From a plasmid, in sequence record OW969666.1: a stretch of DNA of 64,000 nt; one strand, given 5' to 3'. A program made the translations under genes and the position numbers. Under the pieces are notes generated by a model. That model was not told the DNA's origin. It saw only the letters and a list, made by a program, of their open reading frames with translations, and did no database searches. Below are positions 1-9,049 of this stretch, in pieces (position 1 is the first letter of the stretch; every line of letters starts with the position of its first letter).

Positions 1-792
1 GAAGACCGGGTAGCTGAAGAACAGGCGCGTCAGGAACGTGAAAGCAATGTGATCAGACACACCACGCCTGAAATTCCCGCCGACGCTTATCCGGCAACGC
101 TGGTAAAAGCTATGTCAGCCGAACGGACTCTCGCCGTTCAGGCCGAACTGGCGGGTCGTCCCGACGTATCGGTGGCGCTCCTGACGTGGACACTGTGCCT
201 CAGTATGTTTGATCGCAGCTACGGTAAACGCAGCGAACCGCTGAAAGCCTCCGTGTCCTCGAATCAGTATCACCTTGCATCACTGGCTCCATCCGGTGAA
301 GAAGGGAAGGCGCTGACGGCGCTCAAAGCGCAGAAAGAGGCGCTTCAGGCAACGCTGCCCGAAAACTGGCATCTCGATTTCACCTGGCTGCTTTCATGGT
401 CAGCGGAGCAGGTGAACACCCTGCTGGGATTCTGTGCAGCGCACGGTATCAACGGTATTCAGGAACGTATGTACAACCATACGCAGAAAAGCGAACTGGA
501 CGGGCTGGAAGCGGCGCTGGACTTTGACCTGCGCAAATGGTGGCAGCCGGATGCTGAGAGCTACTTCGGCAAGCTCACCATCCCCCAGATTGGCAAAGCC
601 TACGAAGAAGCCGGACTCAGTGCCCGCGCTGGAGAGATTGTGAAGCTCAAGCGCCGCGATGCGGCGAAGGCCGCCGAGCAGGATCTGAATGCTCAGGGCT
701 GGCTGCCTGACTGGATGGTGCGCACATCACCAGCCGCTGAGGCTGAAGAAGCCACCGAAACCGACGCTCACACCACTGACCACGCTGCTTAA
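1..792 (+). CDS. Leading-region ParB/Srx-like nuclease-domain family protein, C-terminal fragment (5' end lies outside window)
   Basis: ORF runs from the window edge to TAA at 790-792. Its position immediately upstream of psiB matches the large ParB-like ORF of IncF leading regions. The acidic Ala/Glu-rich tail is typical. No catalytic motif is visible in this part. Confidence 0.45.
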   Translation, partial: EDRVAEEQARQERESNVIRHTTPEIPADAYPATLVKAMSAERTLAVQAELAGRPDVSVALLTWTLCLSMFDRSYGKRSEPLKASVSSNQYHLASLAPSGEEGKALTALKAQKEALQATLPENWHLDFTWLLSWSAEQVNTLLGFCAAHGINGIQERMYNHTQKSELDGLEAALDFDLRKWWQPDAESYFGKLTIPQIGKAYEEAGLSARAGEIVKLKRRDAAKAAEQDLNAQGWLPDWMVRTSPAAEAEEATETDAHTTDHAA

Positions 793-829
793 TACCGGAG
801 GCCGCCGCCTTCGGGCGGCGGGAACAGAC

Positions 830-1255
830 ATGACTATGCAATATGACCTGAACCAAATCAACAAACTGACCGCCTCCGACCTGGAGTTTATCCGTCAGCA
901 GGGCGAGGACGCGCGCCGCGCTCTCAGCGATACCGTGACCGGCCTCCTGTCCACACCAGAAGGATGGCGCGTCTGCGCCGAATACCGCAGCGAGTTCGGC
1001 GGCTTCTTCCCCGTCCAGTGCCGCTTCAGCGCGGACGGCAGTGATGACTGGCATCTGTGCGTGTGCAGCTCCGGCGAAGTCTCACCGTACTGGCTTCTGG
1101 TGCTGCTCTCCTCCGGCGGGGAAGTGGTGTGTACCCTTTACCAGAGCGACACGCTCCAGCCTGACCGGATACCTGACACGGAAATCGCTTTGCGAAATCC
1201 GGTACAGGGACACGGACAGGGAGGTGGCAGCTTTTATGGCTTACGAATCCGCTAA
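830..1255 (+). CDS. psiB: PsiB (plasmid SOS-inhibition protein B) with a replaced C-terminus from a deletion fusion
   Basis: The sequence MTMQYDL...[16 protein letters not shown]...LCVCSSGEV...[11 protein letters not shown] aligns with F PsiB ([17 protein letters not shown]...LCSPGDV...VLVLVNAGGE). The last ~30 residues ([31 protein letters not shown]) are read from a hok gene in the wrong frame. Confidence 0.75.
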
Positions 1256-1259
1256 GTAG
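1170..1259 (+). pseudogene. hok: hok-family toxin 3' remnant (last 29 codons only)
   Basis: The frame overlapping the psiB 3' end translates to [31 protein letters not shown]. This is nearly identical to the Hok/FlmA C-terminus [28 protein letters not shown]. There is no Hok N-terminus, mok or sok upstream. Confidence 0.7.
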
Positions 1260-1264
1260 CTAAC

Positions 1265-1287
1265 CCCGGCGGGGGGAAACCCCCGCC
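1265..1287. other. GC-rich hairpin (ggcggggg-aaa-cccccgcc) directly after the hok remnant
   Basis: Perfect 8-bp inverted repeat with an AAA loop; it is not followed by a T-tract. It may be part of the hok mRNA 3' fold-back region or an ssDNA structure. Confidence 0.25.
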
Positions 1288-1584
1288 ATTCAGGGGCTGA
1301 GATTGTGTGGACATGCCTGAAGCGCCTTTATGAAGGGGTTGCCGGTTCGCCGGTAGCCCCTTTTTCCTTCCCGACGCGACCGCACGCCTGAACCTCCGGG
1401 AAGGGCTGTTCCCCTGCGGGGAACGGGGGAAGGGGGACGCGCCTTCGGCGCTGCCCCTCTGCTCCCTCTGCCTGATCCTCCCCCCTGCCTGTCCTGCCTG
1501 ATTTTGTTGAATTCGAAACTCTGTGAGCTACCTGCTCATACCGGGCTTCAGCCTGGTGTGCCCGATGTTCTTTATCCCGGGCGT

Positions 1585-2190
1585 CATATCCGGCGTCCTG
1601 CCGGTTAACTTTCGCATCTGCAGCTCCGTGGCTATAACCCGAAAACAGGGCAGGGCGATGGCCCCCTTCGGCTCCCGGCCCGCGTGGCGGTCCGGTCGTC
1701 GAGCCCCACTCCGCCAGGTCGGCTGCTGACGCACCCGCCGGGCTCCGCCGAACCCGCAAGCGGTTTCGGGCTGACGCTAGGGTCTGATGGCTGAGGTCAA
1801 CCCCCTGGCTTGCACCGGCCGGAGGCCGGGCCGCCCTGAGCGCGCCGGCGGAGCCGTCGCTTTAAGGCCGCCACGCCGTTCCGACGTGTCGGGTGCGTGC
1901 ATCCTGTTCACCCGGTGAGGCCATCCCCCGTGCGTCCTCACGCGGAGGGCTGCTTGTAGCACCGTCGGGTCGTCATCCAAGGGGTGAAATGCACTCCGCC
2001 AAAACTTTTTGCGTGCCGCAAAAACTTTTGTCTCCGCCCCTTTCCTTCCGCCCTTCGCCGTTGCTCCTTTTGCCCTTTGCCGCGAGAGAACTCACCAGGG
2101 AGATGGACAACCATCACCACAGGAGAAAACCAGGATGCACACACAAAACGTCAACGTCAAAACCGCCGCTCCCGAATCTTCCAGGAAGAT
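1585..2190 (+). repeat. Leading-region repeat, copy A (~605 bp): GC-rich hairpin-rich region plus palindromic operator-like site, RBS and first ~14 codons of the downstream gene
   Basis: About 95% identical to 4606-5212. It contains the palindrome caaaactttttgcgtgccgcaaaaacttttg, and aggagaaaacc is followed by an ATG. Confidence 0.6.
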
Positions 2191-2449
2191 AGGGGGAAAA
2201 ACCGTGTCGTACACGATCCTCGTCGCTGAGCAGAAAAAAAACTCAGCGGAGGAACCTGATGTTCTGGAGTTCAGCAGCCTGGCTGAGCTGAAGAAACTGC
2301 GCAGACGCTGCCCCGAAACGATGCGCTGCACCTATTTCTACGCCCTCAGCAGCGGCGTCGATAAACAGTTCCGCCATATCCATGTGGCTGAAGCTGACCA
2401 CTTCAAACAGTTTGTGCGCCTGATCGCGCGTGCAGGTATCGACATTTAA
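2135..2449 (+). CDS. Hypothetical leading-region protein (104 aa); N-terminal 14 codons are encoded inside repeat copy A
   Basis: RBS aggagaaaacc precedes ATG 2135, and the ORF reads toward oriT like the other leading genes. Its N-terminus MHTQNVNVKTAAPES is shared with the 5157 gene. Confidence 0.55.
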   Translation: MHTQNVNVKTAAPESSRKIGGKTVSYTILVAEQKKNSAEEPDVLEFSSLAELKKLRRRCPETMRCTYFYALSSGVDKQFRHIHVAEADHFKQFVRLIARAGIDI

Positions 2450-2509
2450 ACACGGTTCACCCCGTGCGGCAGCCGCCGCACGGAACCTCATAAGACAGGA
2501 GCCAGAAAT

Positions 2510-2971
2510 ATGAACGTTAACACCCCGGCCGCTGCACCAATGGCCTTTTTCGTTCCGTCCCATAACGCCGTTTATGACCGCGCAACCCAGCTGGAAGGGC
2601 AGTGGGTGACTCAGCGTGAAGCGATAACGCTGGAATCCCTGCGCCGTCTCTATCCGGATGCGGAGCTGATCCCCGCGACTCTGGTTCAGGAAAAGCAGAA
2701 TGACGGCTATCGCCGTCCCTGGGTGGAAATCACCGGGGCCCGGTACATCGACCAGCTGGAAACGCTGCCGCCAGTGGACTGGTGCAGAGGGTATGGCGGG
2801 GAGTCGTTCAAATCGATGGAGTTTACGGGCGGGGATGTGACCGCAATTTTCGTCCGGTACGGCGCGCGTTTCTTTGAGTGCCATGACCTGCACACCCGCC
2901 ATCACCGGGAGCTGATTGGCGACGTGATCGCCCGTTTCTGTCTCGATGCGCCGCTGAATTCCGCGCATTAA
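2510..2971 (+). CDS. Conserved plasmid leading-region protein (153 aa), possibly YafX/YfjX-like anti-restriction family
   Basis: RBS aggagccagaaat precedes ATG 2510 and the ORF is clean. Its size and neighbourhood resemble the YafX/YfjX class of CP4 prophages and IncF leading regions. The family assignment is not verifiable here. Confidence 0.5.
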   Translation: MNVNTPAAAPMAFFVPSHNAVYDRATQLEGQWVTQREAITLESLRRLYPDAELIPATLVQEKQNDGYRRPWVEITGARYIDQLETLPPVDWCRGYGGESFKSMEFTGGDVTAIFVRYGARFFECHDLHTRHHRELIGDVIARFCLDAPLNSAH

Positions 2972-3058
2972 AAAAGCAGGGTTGCCCCTGCTTTCTCAAC
3001 GCCGGGTAGCCGCAGCAACGGTGAACCGGCAATCACAACCAAAGTAAGGAGATTGATC

Positions 3059-3259
3059 GTGAAATTTGACCCGCAAACTGTCGCACAGGCGAAGGCATTT
3101 GTAAATGCCCTCCGCGCCGGAAAACGCGCTCGCGTACCCGCGCTGCGCTTCTCACAGTGGCAGCCGTTCCTGTCCGTGGTAAATGCCGAAACGGGCTACG
3201 CCACCGATGCTGACTGTGGTCTGGCTGTCAGCGTCTACCCGGCGCTTGGACTGGCTTAA
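3059..3259 (+). CDS. Small hypothetical protein (66 aa; DUF905/YkfF-like size class)
   Basis: aaggag is followed 8 nt later by GTG 3059 (a TTG at 3053 is too close to the SD). Confidence 0.45.
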   Translation: MKFDPQTVAQAKAFVNALRAGKRARVPALRFSQWQPFLSVVNAETGYATDADCGLAVSVYPALGLA

Positions 3260-3299
3260 CAGGAGACGGCCGCCTGCGGGCGGCCGGTAAGGAGAAACC

Positions 3300-4091
3300 A
3301 TGTCACAACTGAGTTTTGAATCCCTGTTCCTGGCAGACCAGGCTGATCTGCAGCCGCGGGCTTCCGCACCGGCCCGGATGCTGTCGCCAGCTGAGGCGCG
3401 TAAACAGTTCGCCAGTGTGTTCCGGCAAACGGCGAAAAATATGCGCCGTTCCGAAGTGTTCAGTGACTTCATCACCCTGGCAGCCAGCGAGCTGGATCTG
3501 GCCCGTATTCGTTCGCCGGAGAACATCGAAAACAGCCGTCGCATCTGCGCACGGTATCAGCCGGACGATTTAGACGCCATGAAGCAGCTGTTCTGCCTGT
3601 TGGTTGAGGGGCTGGCGGGTGACATTCATGATTTCCTCGGCGCTCTGTATATGGAGCAGGAGCTGGGCGCGGACGAAATGGGGCAGTATTTCTCTCCGTC
3701 CTGCATCTCCCGTCTGATGGCCGGACTACTCATGCCCGGCGCTCAGGAGACGATAAAGCGTGAGGGGTGGATGACGCTCGATGAGCCAGCCTGCGGCAGC
3801 GCCGGTATGGTCATTGCCTTTGCATACTGGATGGCTGAAGCGGGATATAACCCGTCTGAACAGCTATATGCCACCTGCACCGACATCGATCCAATGGTGG
3901 CTGATATGGCCTTTATCCAGCTGGCTCTGCTGGGTATTCCCGCGAAAGTCGTGACCGGTAATACGCTGACCCTGAAAGCGAACCGCGTGCGTTACACCCC
4001 CGTGTATTACTTCAATGACTGGCAGGGCCGTCTGGCATTTCGCAGTCGTCTGGATGCAATGAAGAACTTTCTGGCCACCGTGGCCGCCTGA
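3300..4091 (+). CDS. HsdM-like N6-adenine methyltransferase-fold protein (263 aa) without recognisable NPPF/Y catalytic motif
   Basis: GQYFSPSCISRLMAGLL matches the HsdM motif X (GxFYTPxxV). LDEPACGSAGMV matches the SAM motif I (DPACGSGGFL). TDIDPMVADMAFIQLALLGI matches the HsdM (Q/E)EINPTTYRLAKMNLLLHGI block. The ORF ends before an NPPF/Y motif is found. Confidence 0.65.
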   Translation: MSQLSFESLFLADQADLQPRASAPARMLSPAEARKQFASVFRQTAKNMRRSEVFSDFITLAASELDLARIRSPENIENSRRICARYQPDDLDAMKQLFCLLVEGLAGDIHDFLGALYMEQELGADEMGQYFSPSCISRLMAGLLMPGAQETIKREGWMTLDEPACGSAGMVIAFAYWMAEAGYNPSEQLYATCTDIDPMVADMAFIQLALLGIPAKVVTGNTLTLKANRVRYTPVYYFNDWQGRLAFRSRLDAMKNFLATVAA

Positions 4092-4132
4092 CTGACAGAG
4101 CGGCAGGGCAGACCTGCCGCAGGGAGATAAAA

Positions 4133-4468
4133 ATGACAAGCAACACACTGAACGCTGTTCCGGCGACCGTGCTGGAGACCATGGCAGAATGCCTCAACGG
4201 CCAGCCTGAACCGCTAAAAATCCGCAACAACGACGATCACGCTGCACTGGCTGCAGATGTGCTCTGGCAGTTTGCCCGAAAAACCGGGCTGAACAGGGAA
4301 AGCGAGAGCGTGCAAACCGTCATCACTGATTTTCTGGCCAATCTTCTGCACCTGTGCAAACAGTGCGATCCTGACGGGGCAGGTATCGACGGATTTAATG
4401 CCCTGCTGAATATGGCCATGATGCATTATGAGCAGGAAAACGGAGGTGACAGCGAAGAACCAGTTTGA
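4133..4468 (+). CDS. Hypothetical leading-region protein (111 aa)
   Basis: RBS agggagataaaa precedes ATG 4133, and the ORF is co-oriented with the leading genes. Confidence 0.5.
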   Translation: MTSNTLNAVPATVLETMAECLNGQPEPLKIRNNDDHAALAADVLWQFARKTGLNRESESVQTVITDFLANLLHLCKQCDPDGAGIDGFNALLNMAMMHYEQENGGDSEEPV

Positions 4469-4605
4469 TCGGGAGTCTGTGCCCTGGTGGATGCCATCAG
4501 GGCAACCGCAAAAAAACGCTTCCCCTTCGGGGAAACAGGGAGGGCGAAAGCGCCTCCGGCGCTCCTGCCATTCCCCGCTACCGTACTTCTCTCCTTACCT
4601 GCCTT

Positions 4606-5212
4606 CAGAACCGGCGTCCTGCTGGTCAACTTTCTCAGCTGCAGCTTTGTTATGGCCATAACCCGAAAGCAGGGCAGGGCGATGGCCCCCTTCGGCTCCC
4701 GGCCCGCGTGGCGGTCCGGTCGTCGAGCCCCACTCCGCCAGGTCGGCTTCTGACGCACCCGCCGGGCTCCGCCGAACCCGCAAGCGGTTTCGGGCTGACG
4801 CTAGGGTCTGATGGCTGAGGTCAACCCCCTGGCTTGCACCGGCCGGAGGCCGGGCCGCCCTGAGCGCGCCGGCGGAGCCGTCGCTTTAAGGCCGCCACGC
4901 CGTTCCGCCGTGTCGGGTGCGTGCATCCTGTTCACCCGGTGAGGCCATCCCCCGTGCGTCCTCACGCGGAGGGCTGGTCGTAGCACCGTCGGGTCGTCAT
5001 CCGAAGGGTGAAATGCACTCAGACAAAAGTTTTTGCGTGCCGCAAAAACTTTTGTCTGCGCCCTTCTCCTGCCACCCCGCCGTCGCTCCTTTTGCCCTTT
5101 GCCGCGAGAGAACTCACCAGGGAGATGGACAACCATCACCACAGGAGAAAACCAAAATGCACACACGAAACGTCAACGTCAAAACCGCCGCTCAAGAATC
5201 TACCGGAAGATG
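4606..5212 (+). repeat. Leading-region repeat, copy B (~605 bp), upstream of and overlapping the start of the 5157 gene
   Basis: Near-identical to 1585-2190, including the palindromic site, RBS, ATG and first 14 codons. It is preceded by short GC hairpins (ccccttcgggg, gcgcctccggcgc). Confidence 0.6.
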
Positions 5213-5450
5213 TGATTCAAACCTCACCACGTCCCAGTTCACGGATCTGTTCTGCTGGGTCCTGGCAGCATCGGAAGGGGAGCCACAACCGACAATTTTT
5301 ACGCCGCCAGAGAATGCCACTGAGCTGACGTTAATTAATGACGAATGCCCGGATTATATCTCTGTCTGGGTTGTAGATGGTCGCCCGGTGGCAGCTGCAA
5401 TGCCGCTGGATAATTTTCACCGCGTTATTCCTTCATCACTTACTAAATAA
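5157..5450 (+). CDS. Hypothetical leading-region protein (97 aa) sharing its N-terminal 14 residues with the 2135 gene
   Basis: MHTRNVNVKTAAQES is followed by a unique sequence. The ORF starts inside repeat copy B. Confidence 0.55.
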   Translation: MHTRNVNVKTAAQESTGRCDSNLTTSQFTDLFCWVLAASEGEPQPTIFTPPENATELTLINDECPDYISVWVVDGRPVAAAMPLDNFHRVIPSSLTK

Positions 5451-5466
5451 TCAGGAGTAAATAAAA

Positions 5467-6288
5467 ATGGTCAGTTTCGCAAGCCGCTATCGTATGCCTG
5501 TCTCGATCCGTAAAGACCGTCCGCTGACAAATGAGGAATTACAGCTCATCGTTCCGAGCGCGTTCTCATCGGATAAACACGATTCACGCTCTGAACGTTA
5601 TACATATATCCCGACCATAAATATTCTTGACCGTTTACGTGATGAAGGGTTTCAGCCGTATTATGCAACGCAGTCACGCACACGTGACCAGGATAAACGA
5701 GAATTTACAAAACATATGCTTCGCCTGCGTCGTCATGACCAGATTAACGGGAAAGAAGTACCGGAAATTATTCTGCTGAATAGCCATGATGGTTCAAGCA
5801 GCTATAAAATGATCCCCGGTATGTTCCGTCAGGTTTGCAGTAATGGTCTGGTTGCATGGAAGGATTTTGGTGAAATCCGCGTACCCCACAAAGGGGATAT
5901 TGTCGGGCAGGTTATTGAAGGCGCTTACACGGTGCTGAAAACATTTGACGCGGTTGATGAAAATATTGACCTCATGAAAAGCATTCAGCTTACTTTGCCT
6001 GAGCAGCGACTTTTTGGTGCGACCGCTCTGGAACTTAAGTACGATGGAAAACCAGCGCCGATTACGCCGGAGCAAATTATTAACCCACGCCGGGTACTCG
6101 ACAGAGGCCAGGATTTATGGACCACGTTTAACGTAGTACAGGAAAATGTGATCCGTGGGGGGATTCGTGGCAGAACGCAAAAAGGGAAGGTGGCCAGAAC
6201 GCGGGAAGTCACCGGAATTGATGGTGACATCAAATTAAATCAGGTGCTCTGGAAAATGGCGGAGGAGTTTGCAAAACTGAAGGCCTGA
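5467..6288 (+). CDS. DUF932 family protein (YafZ/YfjQ-like, 273 aa)
   Basis: Length and composition match the 273-aa DUF932 proteins of E. coli CP4-6/CP4-57 and plasmid leading regions. RBS caggagtaaataaaa precedes the ATG. Confidence 0.6.
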   Translation: MVSFASRYRMPVSIRKDRPLTNEELQLIVPSAFSSDKHDSRSERYTYIPTINILDRLRDEGFQPYYATQSRTRDQDKREFTKHMLRLRRHDQINGKEVPEIILLNSHDGSSSYKMIPGMFRQVCSNGLVAWKDFGEIRVPHKGDIVGQVIEGAYTVLKTFDAVDENIDLMKSIQLTLPEQRLFGATALELKYDGKPAPITPEQIINPRRVLDRGQDLWTTFNVVQENVIRGGIRGRTQKGKVARTREVTGIDGDIKLNQVLWKMAEEFAKLKA

Positions 6289-6316
6289 AAATTAAGCCGC
6301 TCAACAGAGCGGCTTT

Positions 6317-6856
6317 TTACTGCCCGCTATGTAACGAGGTCGTTTCCGCAATTTGCATTGCATGCTCCTTTCCCGCAGCTGGCGCCAGACGTTCAGAAAG
6401 TAGCTTTTTTCTGGCCAGCAATACACGATATATATTTTTGATATCCTGAGCATACGCCTTGCGCTGCGCAATGAGCTTTTTGCTCGGCCCCGTATTATAC
6501 ATCCCTACGCTGTCCCAGTTTTTTCCGTATGACCTGAAGTTGTGCGCCAGTACCCATGCACCCGTATAAACGCAGATGCATGGATCATTCAACAGTCGCT
6601 CACGGGTAATATTGAAATTTTTAAGTTTACCGTAATGGGAACTGTTCACCTGCATCCCGCAGACATCTTCTGTTCCATTCCTGTTTGATCCATTTATCGC
6701 ACCCGGCTTAAGTCTGCTCTCTTTAATTGAAATTGACATAAGCAGCAGCGGATCAATTTGATAATCTTTCCCGGCCTGATCAAAGCACATCTGGGGAGCT
6801 GCGCCAGCAGACATGGAAAGGGTCAGCAATGCCGCAGGTAGTATCGATATTTTCAT
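6317..6856 (-). CDS. Lytic transglycosylase (F gene X/orf169, R1 P19 family) with signal peptide
   Basis: Signal-peptide N-terminus MKISILPAALLTLSMSAGAA. The catalytic-Glu motif context LMSISIKESRL is present. The gene lies adjacent to oriT, as in F. Confidence 0.8.
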   Translation of the reverse strand: MKISILPAALLTLSMSAGAAPQMCFDQAGKDYQIDPLLLMSISIKESRLKPGAINGSNRNGTEDVCGMQVNSSHYGKLKNFNITRERLLNDPCICVYTGAWVLAHNFRSYGKNWDSVGMYNTGPSKKLIAQRKAYAQDIKNIYRVLLARKKLLSERLAPAAGKEHAMQIAETTSLHSGQ

Positions 6857-6989
6857 GGTTTGGCCTTTTAACGAAATACACGGGCTCTGGAGAGTCGCCT
6901 TAAAAAATACCCCGACGGATCGTCGTAATCAAGTTAATTCACTACAAACGCGCGTGAGCGCTCTCCTGAAGGGATTTAACACCCGTCCG

Positions 6990-7430
6990 AAATAAACATA
7001 TCAGAGCAGTAGACGGTATTAACACGCCGCTCTTTATTAACCCCTTAAAACATCACACCCCACGCAAGACTTTGTCTTGCAGATTTTTCTTTTAATTTCA
7101 GGTGCATATCTGTGATAAATTTGCGCGTTATTGAAGTGTGACCGTCTAATGTCGCACACACCGACACTACACTATCGTATAATCCTGATACCTGTTAGTG
7201 TCGGTATGTCACACATGTATCGTACAATTGTAGATATGCTTTAATTACATTGAATTATATATCGCACAGTGTCACACTGTCGCACATCCTGGTGCTGGAT
7301 TGTACTACTGTACAAAACAGAGATTCGCAGCAGTATCAACCCATTACACCTTTGCACAGCATTTTGATAAACCACCAACAGGCCATATGTAGTGTCGGTT
7401 CCGACACTAACTTAAAACAGGTAAGAAATA
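6990..7430. promoter_or_regulatory. oriT: oriT region; nic motif on the minus strand (cttgcgtggggtgt|gatg, nick ~7054/7055) and TraM-binding palindromes
   Basis: The reverse complement of 7051-7068 matches the F nic consensus GCGTGGGGTGT|GGTG. Several GTCGG/CCGAC-containing palindromes follow (agtgtcggttccgacact at ~7388, cacaccgacactacac, tgtcggtatgtcacaca), typical of TraM sbm sites upstream of traM. Confidence 0.7.
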
Positions 7431-7825
7431 TGGGAAGAGTCGGTATCTACCTTAAAGATAAAATTGAACGCGAGGTTCGCGATATTATTCAACAAGACCT
7501 GCAAAACGGTGCCACCGCAGGAGAAGCAAACATGTCAGCCACCTGCAACGAATTAATCAGGCTTGGGCTTCTGGTTTATAAACGCGATGGCGAGGATGGC
7601 AATCATTTCGATATAGAAGGATACCGAAGGGACCTCATAAGAAAAGCAGCAGGTTCACGCGAAGGTACAGTTCTTATTGCCACACTACTTGCTGAGATGT
7701 ATTTAAAAATGACAGGAAAAGATGGCGAAGGAAGGTTGGAAGATACACTTGATATGATTTTAAACGGCATAAACACAGCCGAGGATGAGGCGGAAACAAG
7801 ACACTTCATCAACGAAAAGAAATAA
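7430..7825 (+). CDS. traM: TraM relaxosome accessory protein (131 aa)
   Basis: MGRVGIYLKDKIEREVRDII...ATCNELIRLGLLVY parallels the F TraM N-terminal DNA-binding region (VNLYISNDAYEKINAIIEKRRQEGA...SFSATASMLLELGL). RBS aggtaagaaat precedes the ATG. Confidence 0.8.
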   Translation: MGRVGIYLKDKIEREVRDIIQQDLQNGATAGEANMSATCNELIRLGLLVYKRDGEDGNHFDIEGYRRDLIRKAAGSREGTVLIATLLAEMYLKMTGKDGEGRLEDTLDMILNGINTAEDEAETRHFINEKK

Positions 7826-7857
7826 ATCCACGAGCCGGAAACCCCGGCTCGAATCGA

Positions 7858-8544
7858 TCACTGGGATGACTTTTCATCCCACGGAAGGTCACTTTTCTCC
7901 ACCTCTCTTATTTTTTCCTTCAGAAACACCTCGAACTCCATACAAAGAACTTTAAGCGCCTGCGCATCCTCGTTCTGGTCAAGTAACCTTTCCGTAAAAT
8001 AACCCAGCGTATTCATCAGACGGGTAAGCATTTCGTCATTAAGACTACGGTTATGAACCTTCGCCATCGCCCTGATTTCATCCGCGAGATTCTCAGGAAT
8101 ACGCATGCTGTAGCCAGTTGTTTTCCCTGGAAGTAAAATTCTTTCACCCTCACGCCACACCCACAACTGCTCCTGTTTGGGCGGGACTTTAACATCTTCC
8201 GCAACATCAACGGATTCACCATCAAGTAATTTCCCCAGCCACTCCTCAAATTTCACCGCCAGTGCAATGAGACGCTCACCCTCCGCATTTTTAATGACAG
8301 GCTTGCCTGGCTGGTAATTCAGCGACAATAAAAGCCTGGCAATAATTTCCTCATTCACGCTTCTGTTGCCAGCTCTGGCACATATTCTCAGCTCCATAAG
8401 CAGATTATCCGGAGCACGCAACCGCCACTCCACCGCTTCACCTGGCTGGAACTTACGTGGACGGCCGCGACCATCCAACAATTTCTCTTTAACTTTCATA
8501 GCTATAGATCCCGGAGGCCATTTCCATACTTTCTGGTCAACCAA
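7858..8544 (-). CDS. Antisense double ribbon-helix-helix protein (TraY-like repeats), 228 aa (start may be the internal Met at ~8499)
   Basis: Two repeats, RAPDNLLMELRICARAGNRSVNEEIIARL and RIPENLADEIRAMAKVHNRSLNDEMLTRL, match the duplicated NRS-containing RHH motif of F TraY. No plus-strand ORF of at least 60 aa exists between traM and traA. Confidence 0.55.
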   Translation of the reverse strand: MVDQKVWKWPPGSIAMKVKEKLLDGRGRPRKFQPGEAVEWRLRAPDNLLMELRICARAGNRSVNEEIIARLLLSLNYQPGKPVIKNAEGERLIALAVKFEEWLGKLLDGESVDVAEDVKVPPKQEQLWVWREGERILLPGKTTGYSMRIPENLADEIRAMAKVHNRSLNDEMLTRLMNTLGYFTERLLDQNEDAQALKVLCMEFEVFLKEKIREVEKSDLPWDEKSSQ

Positions 8545-8695
8545 GCCTACTCACTTACATATTCGGATAAATCTGAATGATTCCAAAAAGTGTGACATGT
8601 GTCACAGTTTTTTTTTTTTAGGGTCATGGGAAAATTGCGCCCGCGTAAACAAGCACTTACGCGAGTCACTTTTGTTTACTTCGGAGAAAACAATC

Positions 8696-9049
8696 ATGTT
8701 AACCAAAGGCAGTGCCCTTAACGTCGGTAAGGGATGGGCGGTAGCGTCTTTATTCCGCAAAGCACGCGAAAATCGCCAGGCTAAATTTTACTTAAAGTCA
8801 GCAGGCGCTTTTTTAATTGCACTTATGGTCACTCACCCGGCATTTGCCGGCGGAACCGACCTTCTTTCCTCACAGAACACCACGGTTAATTCCACCTTCG
8901 GCTCTGGCTCTTCATTGATTAAATGGTTCTATATCGCCGAAATCATCATGGGCCTGTTTATTTACATCAAGGCCCGCTCACCGCTGGTATTCGTCGGTAT
9001 CGTAATGGCAATCATCTTTACCCGTGTCGCCTTCGGCATCGCGAGTTAA
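8696..9049 (+). CDS. traA: TraA propilin
   Basis: TDLLSSQNTTVNSTFGSGSSLIKWFYIAEIIMGLFIYI...IVMAIIFTRVAFGIAS aligns with F pilin DLMASGNTTVKATFGKDSSVVKWVVLAEVLVGAVMYM.... Confidence 0.85.
   Translation: MLTKGSALNVGKGWAVASLFRKARENRQAKFYLKSAGAFLIALMVTHPAFAGGTDLLSSQNTTVNSTFGSGSSLIKWFYIAEIIMGLFIYIKARSPLVFVGIVMAIIFTRVAFGIAS

What the first reader, a model, noticed from the sequence alone, without database searches (positions are those of the whole stretch)
2135..6288. Candidate anti-defence island in the leading region
Seven co-directional small ORFs (104, 153, 66, 263, 111, 97 and 273 aa) lie between psiB and the oriT-proximal transglycosylase. None of them codes for transfer or replication functions. 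They include an MTase-fold protein, a DUF932 protein and a possible YafX/YfjX-like protein. Leading regions are known to concentrate anti-restriction, anti-SOS and anti-CRISPR functions, so several of these orphans are plausible uncharacterised anti-defence genes.
Basis: inference. Interest (0 to 1): 0.7.

Follow-up and report, generated by a model that had tools for sequence, protein, structure and literature searches.

The report
Leading-region early genes behind ssDNA promoters
This is the first stretch of an IncF-type Enterobacter plasmid to enter a recipient cell: two small operons, each probably switched on by a hairpin promoter in the incoming single strand, and it is a well-catalogued kind of region whose gene functions are still unproven.

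Summary
The seven co-directional ORFs are real and conserved. The DNA from 1170 onward is 100% identical to Enterobacter cloacae pECL_A, and Klebsiella IncFII(K) plasmids share the synteny.

They are related to Frpo/ssi single-strand promoters and fold into ~220-nt hairpins on the transferred (minus) strand. They split the island into two units:
- Unit A: orf104, orf153, orf66, the 263-aa MTase-like protein and orf111.
- Unit B: orf97 and the DUF932 protein.

orf104 and the DUF932 protein are orthologues of F plasmid YgeA and YgeB/YubP. In F these two sit behind Frpo1 and matter for conjugation even in isogenic matings.

The "MTase" is only the first half of an HsdM-type methyltransferase. The SAM-binding motifs are kept, the catalytic NPPF is replaced by a conserved T-P-x-(H/Y), and motifs V-VIII are absent. 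Some relatives are fused to ArdC anti-restriction domains.

No ORF resembles YafX/YfjX.

The DUF932, HsdM-like and DUF1419 families are already listed as leading-region-enriched by Samuel et al. 2024.

Verdict: a known kind of region. An anti-defence role is plausible but unproven. The half-HsdM protein is the one lead worth testing.

The parts
827..1255 (+). Context: chimeric psiB. About 114 codons of PsiB are fused to 28 codons in the mok/DUF5431 frame.
   Evidence: Pfam gives PsiB on residues 7-115 and DUF5431 on residues 115-142. The protein is 45% identical to F PsiB over 98 aa. The breakpoint at ~1170 was mapped against pACYC.E9L, where 1586 bp are missing in the window.
1170..1259 (+). 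Context: hok remnant (3' part only, first 23 codons deleted), followed by the hok downstream region.
   Evidence: From 1170 the window is 100% identical to pECL_A, starting 69 nt into the annotated hok gene.
1577..2182 (-). Frpo/ssi-like repeat, copy A. The predicted ssDNA-promoter hairpin on the transferred strand spans 1902-2124. The repeat also carries the RBS and the first ~15 codons of orf104.
   Evidence: Direct repeat with 4598-5204. blastn: 77% over 396 nt to 'Frpo*5' of Samuel et al., 91% over 34 nt to F ssiD, 74% over 74 nt to ColIb Frpo1, all in T-strand orientation. Minus-strand DNA fold z = -4.0, against -1.8 for the plus strand.
2135..2449 (+). orf104: orthologue of F plasmid YgeA, with an extra repeat-encoded N-terminal leader.
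   Evidence: 67% identity over 90 aa to the F 95-aa ORF that follows Frpo1. Found in 3024 plasmid records. No Pfam, NCBIfam, PHROG, PADLOC or PDB match.
2510..2971 (+). orf153: DUF1419-related protein, function unknown.
   Evidence: Pfam DUF1419 at E 0.002, 18.6 bits, below the 23-bit cutoff. Found in 346 plasmid records, some annotated DUF1419. 33% identical to the syntenic ORF in a K. pneumoniae IncFII(K) plasmid. No similarity to ArdB/KlcA.
3059..3259 (+). orf66: small conserved ORF, function unknown.
   Evidence: Annotated in pECL_A and pACYC.E9L. Found in 760 plasmid records, mostly Klebsiella. No family match.
3300..4091 (+). Half-HsdM protein (263 aa): an N-terminal helical domain plus strands b1-b4 of an HsdM-type SAM-binding fold. 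The catalytic motif IV and motifs V-VIII are absent.
4133..4468 (+). orf111: conserved small protein, function unknown.
   Evidence: phrog_3963 at E 1e-11, function unknown. Found in 146 plasmid records. No PDB or Pfam match.
4598..5204 (-). Frpo/ssi-like repeat, copy B. The predicted hairpin on the transferred strand spans 4926-5146. The repeat carries the RBS and the first ~15 codons of orf97.
   Evidence: Minus-strand DNA fold z = -7.4.
5157..5450 (+). orf97: leader-ORF downstream of copy B. It shares only the repeat-encoded N-terminus with orf104.
   Evidence: the similarity lies mainly in the N-terminal leader; only the leader matches F YgeA. Found in 228 plasmid records.
5467..6288 (+). 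DUF932 protein: orthologue of F YgeB/YubP (ORF273).
6317..6856 (-). Context: SLT lytic transglycosylase, encoded on the strand that cannot be read from the transferred strand.
   Evidence: Pfam SLT at E 3e-19. Same position and orientation as in F.
7053..7063 (-). Context: nic-like sequence of oriT. It defines the minus strand as the T-strand.
   Evidence: GTGGGGTGTGA has one mismatch to the F nic sequence as I recall it. It lies in the SLT-traM intergenic region, within CTTGCGTGGGGTGTGATG.

Best explanation
The interval is the oriT-proximal part of an IncF-type leading region, built as two early ('zygotic') transcription units. Each unit is headed by a ~600-nt repeat related to class-1 Frpo/ssi single-strand promoters.

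Proposed mechanism:
1. The minus strand enters the recipient starting from nic at ~7054.
2. Each repeat folds into a ~220-nt imperfect hairpin that mimics a duplex promoter.
3. Host RNA polymerase then transcribes the downstream + sense genes directly from the incoming strand.
4. Expression stops when the complementary strand is synthesised.

Unit B (hairpin 4926-5146, orf97, DUF932) corresponds to F's Frpo1-ygeA-ygeB locus. Unit A (hairpin 1902-2124, orf104 = YgeA orthologue, DUF1419-like orf153, orf66, half-HsdM, orf111) is an extra cargo module. It is also found in Klebsiella IncFII(K) plasmids.

The products act in the new host during establishment. The YgeA and YgeB orthologues most likely serve a general establishment function rather than a purely anti-defence one. 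The half-HsdM protein is most likely a non-catalytic SAM-binding module that interferes with type I (or other SAM-dependent) restriction.

Shown here: gene content, orthology, repeat structure, strand logic, hairpin potential, and the truncated and altered MTase fold.
Inferred: ssDNA promoter activity, timing of expression, and every protein function.
For: - Identity and context: the window from 1170 is 100% identical to pECL_A (IncFII/FIB, MOBF, MPF_F).
- The nic-like site on the minus strand sets the T-strand.
- The two repeats have a 300-nt core that is 99% identical.
- The repeats are related to published Frpo/ssi sequences, in T-strand orientation only.
- Minus-strand folding gives z = -4.0 and -7.4, against -1.8 for the plus strand.
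- No consensus dsDNA sigma-70 promoter lies upstream of either unit.
- The F plasmid has the layout hok / Frpo1 / ygeA / DUF932 / SLT(-) / oriT, and orthology is shown.
- In F, Frpo1 and Frpo2 drive ssDNA-stage expression, and deleting ygeA or Frpo1 lowers conjugation (PMC9849209).
- The same synteny occurs in a K. pneumoniae plasmid.
- Half-HsdM anatomy.
- Fusions to ArdC-N and MPTase.
- The families are catalogued as leading-region-enriched and T-strand-encoded, with median positions 1, 2 and 4 ORFs from oriT.
Against: - The repeats match experimentally proven Frpo/ssi elements only over the hairpin tip (34-74 nt). Their full-length match is to 'Frpo*' candidates, which Samuel et al. themselves rate as low certainty.
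- The candidate -35/-10 boxes are poor: TTGGAT-16-TACAAG in copy A and TCGGAT-16-TACGAC in copy B.
- No expression data exist for this plasmid type.
- No ORF matches any known anti-defence protein family in Pfam, NCBIfam or PHROGs, and the sequence searches of the PDB were also negative. PADLOC was also run, but it models defence systems, not anti-defence proteins.
- Domain fusion to ArdC is only guilt by association.
- The conserved T-P at the motif IV position could mean an unusual catalytic activity rather than none.
Confidence: 0.6

Rival explanations
1. The island is a pure anti-defence island. Most of the seven proteins would be dedicated inhibitors of restriction, CRISPR, BREX or similar systems, and would be dispensable where the recipient has no defences.
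For: Anti-defence genes are enriched in this location, and many uncharacterised families there are suspected anti-defence genes (PMC11541004). The half-HsdM domain is fused to ArdC anti-restriction domains in some proteins. The small ORFs evolve faster; for example orf153 shows 24 non-synonymous against 15 synonymous codon changes.
Against: The F orthologues of two of the seven (ygeA, ygeB) affect conjugation in standard K-12 matings where no defence barrier is expected. Another leading-region protein, YfjB/HerB, reprograms host transcription instead. None of the seven matches a known anti-defence family, and the claimed YafX/YfjX-like ORF is absent.
Confidence: 0.25
2. The 263-aa protein is a genuine orphan N6-adenine DNA methyltransferase that protects the incoming plasmid by methylating it. 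This is what the RefSeq name 'N-6 DNA methylase' implies, and it is how the leading-region catalogue groups the family.
For: The Pfam N6_Mtase match is above its threshold. Motifs X, I, II and III are strongly conserved. Leading-region MTases that methylate ssDNA exist, for example M.EcoGIX (PMC7736820, cited). The residues at the motif IV position (T233, P234) are almost invariant, which suggests a working site.
Against: None of 149 diverse family representatives contains (D/N/S)PP(Y/F/W). The match ends at profile position ~118 of 311 in every member tested. The model has only four strands and then a terminal helix, with no motifs V-VIII and no target-recognition domain. No hsdS-like partner is nearby. 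The short length (median 265 aa) is the rule for the family.
Confidence: 0.12
3. The YgeA-like and DUF932 proteins form an addiction or toxin-antidote-like pair that stabilises the leading region, rather than acting on recipient defences.
For: In F, ygeB could not be deleted alone, and deleting ygeA was worse than deleting ygeA and ygeB together with Frpo1. Toxin-antitoxin genes are over-represented in leading regions.
Against: Here the two genes are 3 kb apart in different transcription units. Most Klebsiella plasmids carry DUF932 without a detectable YgeA homologue: 268 Klebsiella records hold a YgeA match, while 2929 match the region as a whole, and L009 carries DUF932 while its first ORF shares only the N-terminal leader with orf104. 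DUF932 is under strong purifying selection and has many invariant polar residues, which looks more like an enzyme or a specific binder.
Confidence: 0.1
4. The repeats are not promoters. They would be recombination or primosome-assembly (ssi) sites, or simply selfish repeated DNA, and the genes would be transcribed from ordinary double-strand promoters after conversion.
For: F Frpo/ssiD also primes complementary-strand synthesis. The -35/-10 candidates here are weak. The 99%-identical core points to ongoing gene conversion.
Against: No consensus dsDNA promoter was found upstream of either unit. The structure is strand-specific. Each repeat sits immediately upstream of, and overlaps, the first ORF of a unit in three different plasmids. 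The repeats are related to elements whose ssDNA promoter activity has been shown in vivo.
Confidence: 0.1

Closest known systems
F plasmid Frpo1-ygeA-ygeB(yubP) locus next to oriT (Masai and Arai 1997; Couturier et al. 2023, PMC9849209)
   Same: The order is the same: hok, ssDNA-promoter repeat, leader/YgeA ORF, 273-aa DUF932 protein, SLT on the opposite strand, oriT, traM. YgeA is 67% identical and DUF932 64% identical. The hairpin tip is 91% identical to F ssiD over 34 nt.
   Different: Here ygeA and ygeB are separated by four extra genes and a second copy of the repeat. Outside the hairpin tip, the repeats are too diverged from F Frpo1 to align at E below 1e-10. orf104 carries a duplicated leader.
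Leading-region anti-defence islands with Frpo promoters (Samuel et al. 2024, Nature 635:186, PMC11541004)
   Same: Location within the first ORFs after oriT, T-strand coding, and Frpo-like elements upstream of operons all agree. Families 3 (YubP/DUF932), 53 (HsdM-like 'DNA methylase') and 71 (DUF1419) are in their enrichment table. The repeats match their 'Frpo*5-7' candidates at 72-77% identity.
   Different: Within the finding's coordinates there is no recognised anti-defence gene. The only nearby known one, psiB, is truncated, and psiA is deleted.
Type I R-M methyltransferase subunit HsdM (gamma-class N6-adenine MTase, PF02384), e.g. EcoKI HsdM
   Different: The protein is 263 aa against ~490-530 aa for HsdM. 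NPPF is replaced by TPVY, with family consensus T-P-(A/V/M)-(H/Y/F). Strands b5-b7 and the C-terminal HsdS-binding region are missing, and there is no hsdS or hsdR partner.
ArdC anti-restriction protein of R388 and ArdC-centred polyvalent proteins (PMC7213743; Iyer et al. 2017, PMC5512222)
   Same: The half-HsdM domain forms the C-terminus of ~650-aa proteins that contain ArdC-N, the MPTase-PolyVal zincin and a CbtA-like segment. In a Flavobacterium phage the gene directly follows an ORF annotated as an ArdC-N-type (PF08401) ssDNA-binding protein.
   Different: In the window the domain is a stand-alone protein. No ArdC-N or peptidase domain is present in the island.
ssDNA-specific leading-region methyltransferase M.EcoGIX of pESBL (Fomenkov et al. 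2020, PMC7736820)
   Same: It is a leading-region gene that is induced early and carries an MTase-type domain.
   Different: M.EcoGIX is an active methyltransferase driven by a class-3 ssDNA promoter. The protein here lacks the catalytic motif and half of the fold.

Membership tests
Class-1 ssDNA promoter (Frpo/ssi) | Lies in the leading region, directly upstream of genes templated by the transferred strand | tested here: met
   The nic-like site on the minus strand places both repeats upstream of + sense ORFs.
Class-1 ssDNA promoter (Frpo/ssi) | Sequence homology to experimentally characterised Frpo/ssi elements | tested here: inconclusive
   Only the hairpin tip matches: 91% over 34 nt to F ssiD and 74% over 74 nt to ColIb Frpo1. 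The full-length match (77% over 396 nt) is to an untested 'Frpo*' candidate.
Class-1 ssDNA promoter (Frpo/ssi) | The transferred strand folds into a long, stable, imperfect stem-loop | tested here: met
   Hairpins of 223 nt and 221 nt; z = -4.0 and -7.4 on the minus strand against -1.8 on the plus strand.
Class-1 ssDNA promoter (Frpo/ssi) | The stem rebuilds -35 and -10 boxes | tested here: inconclusive
   The best candidates are TTGGAT-16-TACAAG (copy A) and TCGGAT-16-TACGAC (copy B). The -10 candidate sits in a mostly unpaired internal loop. The match to consensus is weak.
Class-1 ssDNA promoter (Frpo/ssi) | RNA polymerase initiates on ssDNA; expression comes early and is shut off by ds conversion | not testable with these tools
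   This needs 5'RACE or reporter assays in transconjugants.
N6-adenine DNA methyltransferase (PF02384, HsdM type) | SAM-binding motifs X, I, II and III | tested here: met
   GQ(F/Y)FTP, (E/D)PxCGxG, D195 and G-(N/D)-(T/S)-L are conserved in 108-136 of 138 diverse members, and sit at the ends of b1-b3 in the model.
N6-adenine DNA methyltransferase (PF02384, HsdM type) | Catalytic motif IV, (D/N/S)PP(Y/F/W) | tested here: not met
   The window protein has TPVY. None of 149 representatives has the motif, and distant members show YTLA, CSLM, YMPF or FYIN.
N6-adenine DNA methyltransferase (PF02384, HsdM type) | Complete seven-stranded class I MTase fold (motifs V-VIII) plus a target-recognition partner | tested here: not met
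   The Pfam match stops at profile position ~118 of 311. The model has four strands and then a C-terminal helix. No hsdS is nearby.
DUF932 (PF06067) / UPF0380 YubP-YgeB | Pfam match above the gathering score and orthology to F ORF273 at the same position | tested here: met
   167 bits against a cutoff of 23. 64% identity over 271 aa, and the last + strand gene before SLT and oriT.
YgeA (F 95-aa leading protein) | Sequence orthology and position as the first ORF after an Frpo element | tested here: met
   orf104 is 67% identical over 90 aa and follows repeat copy A.
ArdB/KlcA antirestriction family (YafX/YfjX, PF03230) | Detectable similarity to the Antirestrict domain | tested here: not met
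   No Pfam, NCBIfam or PHROG hit for any of the seven ORFs. BLASTP of orf153 and orf111 against the F antirestriction protein gives E of 10 or more.
DUF1419 (PF07215) | Pfam match above the gathering score | tested here: inconclusive
   orf153 scores 18.6 bits against a cutoff of 23. Some close homologues are annotated DUF1419 by RefSeq.
Leading-region anti-defence island (sensu Samuel et al. 2024) | Cluster of T-strand-encoded genes near oriT that contains recognised anti-defence genes | tested here: inconclusive
   Position and strand criteria are met. Inside 2135-6288 no recognised anti-defence gene was found. The flanking psiB is truncated.
Leading-region anti-defence island (sensu Samuel et al. 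2024) | Demonstrated protection against a defence system | not testable with these tools
   This requires conjugation, transformation or phage assays.

The most novel reading that the evidence does not exclude
The widespread leading-region 'N-6 DNA methylase' may not be a methyltransferase at all. The family occurs in 2171 PLSDB plasmids, including Klebsiella IncFII(K) plasmids, has 944 clusters (at 50% identity) at E of 1e-30 or better, and is also found in phages of Vibrio, Faecalibacterium and Flavobacterium. On this reading it is a conserved, non-catalytic, SAM-binding half of HsdM with a family-specific T-P-x-(H/Y) loop. It would act as an anti-restriction effector, either by docking into type I R-M complexes as an HsdM mimic or by binding or processing SAM. 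In ArdC-type polyvalent proteins it would serve as the targeting module.
Probability: 0.3. Interest if true: 0.65.

Novelty: already known. Interest (0 to 1): 0.3.

Why it matters
Leading regions decide whether a resistance plasmid survives its first minutes in a new host. The same arrangement occurs in Enterobacter IncFII(pECLA)-type and Klebsiella IncFII(K) plasmids, which are clinically important resistance carriers.

The island itself adds nothing new in kind. Two points are useful, though.

1. A family that is counted as an 'orphan protective methylase' in annotation and in the leading-region catalogue lacks the catalytic motif and half of the fold. Its assumed mechanism is therefore probably wrong, and a simple biochemical test can settle it.
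2. Two of the seven genes are orthologues of the F genes with the strongest known establishment phenotype (ygeA and ygeB). Here they sit in separate ssDNA-promoter units, a natural arrangement that could help separate their roles.

Tried and rejected
- Rfam scan of 1-9000: only a sub-threshold AS-pc01 hit (31 bits against a gathering score of 79) and one spurious hit. No sok or other RNA family was found.
- PADLOC: only weak type I MTase matches to the 263-aa ORF and nothing for the other six.
- NCBIfam: nothing useful for the seven ORFs.
- PHROGs: matches only to families of unknown function.
- PDB sequence searches for five ORFs: no significant hits apart from a marginal HsdM match.
- YafX/YfjX (ArdB/KlcA) idea: rejected.
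- Split-methyltransferase idea, in which a neighbouring ORF supplies motifs IV-VIII: rejected. No neighbour has any MTase signal, and the neighbours differ in the Pseudomonas and Acinetobacter plasmids and in the phages.
- Truncation by recent mutation: rejected, because the short length is the norm for the family.
- Consensus dsDNA promoter scan: nothing upstream of either unit.
- Literature searches for the protein accessions, and for 'YubP' with word-start matching, gave nothing useful.
- I did not use the third homologue search or predict structures for the four small ORFs.

Full report
**Observation.** From position 1170 the window is 100% identical to Enterobacter cloacae ATCC 13047 plasmid pECL_A and to many E. 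hormaechei plasmids typed IncFII/IncFIB, MOBF and MPF_F. RefSeq annotates the same ORFs there. A relative about 92% identical, pACYC.E9L from E. mori, has the same seven genes.

Each ORF recurs in many PLSDB plasmids:

| ORF | Plasmid records |
|---|---|
| orf104 | 3024 |
| 263-aa ORF | 2171 |
| orf66 | 760 |
| orf153 | 346 |
| orf97 | 228 |
| orf111 | 146 |

The DUF932 protein has 5088 clusters in the protein database. Against pACYC.E9L the two large ORFs change mostly at synonymous sites: 28 synonymous against 6 non-synonymous codons, and 21 against 8. orf153 changes faster (15 against 24), and the other small ORFs have too few differences to judge. These are genuine genes.

**Orientation.** The SLT-traM intergenic region holds CTTGCGTGGGGTGTGATG on the minus strand (7053-7063 and flanks). 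It differs by one base from the F nic core as I recall it. The minus strand is therefore the transferred strand. Everything below ~7054 is leading region, and all seven ORFs are templated by the incoming strand.

The interval is not a plain row of ORFs. Two direct repeats of about 600 nt (1577-2182 and 4598-5204) share a 300-nt core that is 99% identical, and each precedes a group of genes. I compared them with the Frpo/ssi sequences listed in Supplementary Table 2 of Samuel et al. 2024. Both copies match only in the T-strand orientation:
- 77% over 396 nt and 75% over 390 nt to the Salmonella candidate 'Frpo*5';
- for copy A only, 91% over 34 nt to F ssiD (Frpo) and 74% over 74 nt to ColIb-P9 Frpo1.

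Folded as DNA, the minus strand gives long imperfect hairpins:
- 223 nt at 1902-2124 (z = -4.0);
- 221 nt at 4926-5146 (z = -7.4).

The plus strand folds no better than shuffled sequence would suggest (z = -1.8). No consensus double-strand promoter lies upstream of either gene group. Candidate -35/-10 boxes on the 3' arm are weak: TTGGAT-16-TACAAG in copy A and TCGGAT-16-TACGAC in copy B. The -10 candidate lies in an internal loop. If these boxes are used, transcription would start near 2075 and 5097. I rate that placement as low confidence.

**Comparison with F.** The F plasmid has the order hok, a ~900-nt gap holding Frpo1, a 95-aa ORF (ygeA), a 273-aa DUF932 ORF (ygeB/yubP), SLT on the opposite strand, oriT and traM.
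- orf104 is the YgeA orthologue (67% identity).
- The 273-aa ORF is the YgeB orthologue (64% identity).
- orf97 shares only its first ~15 residues with them.

Relative to F, the window therefore carries an insertion between ygeA and ygeB, made up of orf153, orf66, the 263-aa ORF, orf111, a second repeat copy and orf97. A K. pneumoniae IncFII(K) plasmid shows the same plan: a leader-ORF, a DUF1419-like ORF (33% identical to orf153), a small ORF, a 277-aa homologue of the 263-aa ORF, an ~820-nt gap, DUF932 and SLT.

**What is known for F.**
- Frpo1 and Frpo2 are needed for expression of the downstream genes while the plasmid is still single-stranded.
- Deleting Frpo1 lowers the transconjugant frequency to 25%, and deleting ygeA lowers it to 3.9%.
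- ygeB could not be deleted on its own (PMC9849209).
- Those matings were standard K-12 crosses, where no strong establishment barrier is expected (see also the isogenic K-12 transfers in the 2026 preprint). These two genes are therefore not simply anti-defence genes.
- A further leading-region protein, YfjB/HerB, reprograms host transcription (PMC13370423). Its homologue's C-terminus is the first ORF of this window.

**The 'MTase-fold' protein.** The Pfam N6_Mtase match covers only profile positions 7-118 of 311. The family is uniformly short. The close homologues run 205-323 aa, mostly 263-281 aa. The 149 new representatives listed by the search of clusters at 50% identity have a median length of 265 aa, and 944 clusters score E of 1e-30 or better.

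A profile alignment to EcoKI HsdM lines up GQYFSP with GQYFTP and EPACGSAGM with DPAAGTAGF (E 6e-6). Across 138 diverse representatives:
- motifs X, I, II (D195) and III (G-N/D-T/S-L) are conserved;
- the position of the catalytic NPPF carries T (132 of 138), P (118 of 138), then A/V/M, then H/Y/F;
- none of 149 sequences contains (D/N/S)PP(Y/F/W).

Distant plasmid and phage members are also short and lack the motif. The protein therefore keeps the SAM-binding half of HsdM and lacks the catalytic motif, strands 5-7 and any specificity partner. Membership of the active N6-adenine methyltransferases fails on two defining features.

Three ~650-aa relatives carry this domain at the C-terminus, behind ArdC-N, the ArdC-type zincin peptidase (detected in two of the three) and a CbtA-like segment (in two of the three). 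In a Flavobacterium phage the gene directly follows an ORF annotated as an ArdC-N-type (PF08401) ssDNA-binding protein. ArdC is a proven anti-type-I-restriction factor (PMC7213743). This association is the only positive evidence I found for an anti-defence role for any of the seven ORFs, and it is indirect.

**The remaining ORFs.**
- orf153 is weakly DUF1419-like, below the Pfam threshold.
- orf111 matches an unannotated PHROG family.
- orf66 and orf97 match nothing.
- No ORF resembles ArdB/KlcA (YafX/YfjX).

**Relation to published work.** In Samuel et al. 2024, Supplementary Table 1 lists:
- YubP/DUF932 as family 3 (4661 members, median position 1 from oriT, T-strand);
- DUF1419 as family 71.

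I could not confirm that family 53 is exactly the half-HsdM family, but its name, position and strand all fit. The concept, the families and this very sequence are therefore already in the literature and databases. What is not in the papers I could read is that the HsdM-like family lacks the catalytic apparatus. Iyer et al. 2017 treat the N6A methylase as a hub domain of polyvalent proteins and do not mention a truncated form.

**Verdict.**
The location logic is sound and already published, but no anti-defence function is shown, one claimed similarity is absent, the 'MTase' is not a credible methylase, and two genes are orthologues of F establishment genes.
- The best-supported description is a pair of Frpo-type, single-strand-promoter-driven early operons of an IncF-like leading region.
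- Interest is low to moderate. The half-HsdM protein is the one specific, testable lead.

Noticed in passing
window 827-1259 (junction at ~1168-1171): Relative to pACYC.E9L, a 1586-bp deletion joins psiB codon ~114 to hok nucleotide ~70. PsiB therefore ends in 28 residues read in the mok/DUF5431 frame, psiA and two small ORFs are missing, and hok lacks its first 23 codons. Only 1-2 nt of microhomology lie at the junction. No record among the 72,556 PLSDB plasmids contains the junction contiguously.
   Followed up: yes
window 2135-2185 and 5157-5205; L002 1979-2035; L009 4952-5000: Each repeat carries an RBS and the first ~15 codons. Unrelated proteins therefore share the N-terminal leader MHT(Q/R)NVNVKTAA (orf104, orf97, and a 90-aa ORF in pACYC.E9L), and the Klebsiella plasmid ORF starts MSIQNVNVK. 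F YgeA starts with the same leader (MSTRNIHVNTAS), and orf104 seems to contain it twice in tandem. I do not know whether the leader has a function, such as translation efficiency or an export signal.
   Followed up: partly
window 1629-1928 and 4653-4952: The central 300 nt of the two repeats are 99% identical, while their flanks are 82-94% identical. This suggests recent gene conversion. Recombination between the copies would delete the 3-kb unit A.
   Followed up: no
window 2971-3060, minus strand: Weak Rfam hit to AS-pc01 (an antisense RNA of the IncFII plasmid pHK01) in the orf153-orf66 spacer: 31 bits against a gathering score of 79, E 0.02. It is probably chance.
   Followed up: no
window 5013-5450 (pECL_A locus L001 7844-8281): RefSeq calls this gene as 145 aa in pECL_A, with a start codon inside the predicted hairpin, and as 97 aa in pACYC.E9L. 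The 97-aa start has the repeat-encoded RBS and matches orf104, so the longer call is probably an annotation artefact.
   Followed up: partly
window 49-792: The first ORF of the window is the C-terminal part of a ParB-like YfjB/HerB homologue (48% identical to the F protein over 221 aa). A 2026 preprint reports that HerB reprograms host transcription after plasmid entry.
   Followed up: partly
proteins P0262, P0263, P0301: These ~650-aa polyvalent-type proteins combine ArdC-N and the half-HsdM domain, plus the MPTase-PolyVal zincin (in two of them) and a CbtA-toxin-like segment (in two of them). Their genomic context was not examined.
   Followed up: partly
window 7430-8544: Downstream of oriT there is a TraM-like gene (7430-7825, a weak TraM NCBIfam match). 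After it comes a 228-aa Arc-family DNA-binding gene on the opposite strand (7858-8544), where F has traJ and traY. This points to a different regulatory arrangement of the tra operon.
   Followed up: no
window 6317-6856: The SLT transglycosylase gene is the DNA closest to nic, but it is encoded on the strand that cannot be transcribed from the incoming single strand. F has the same arrangement.
   Followed up: no
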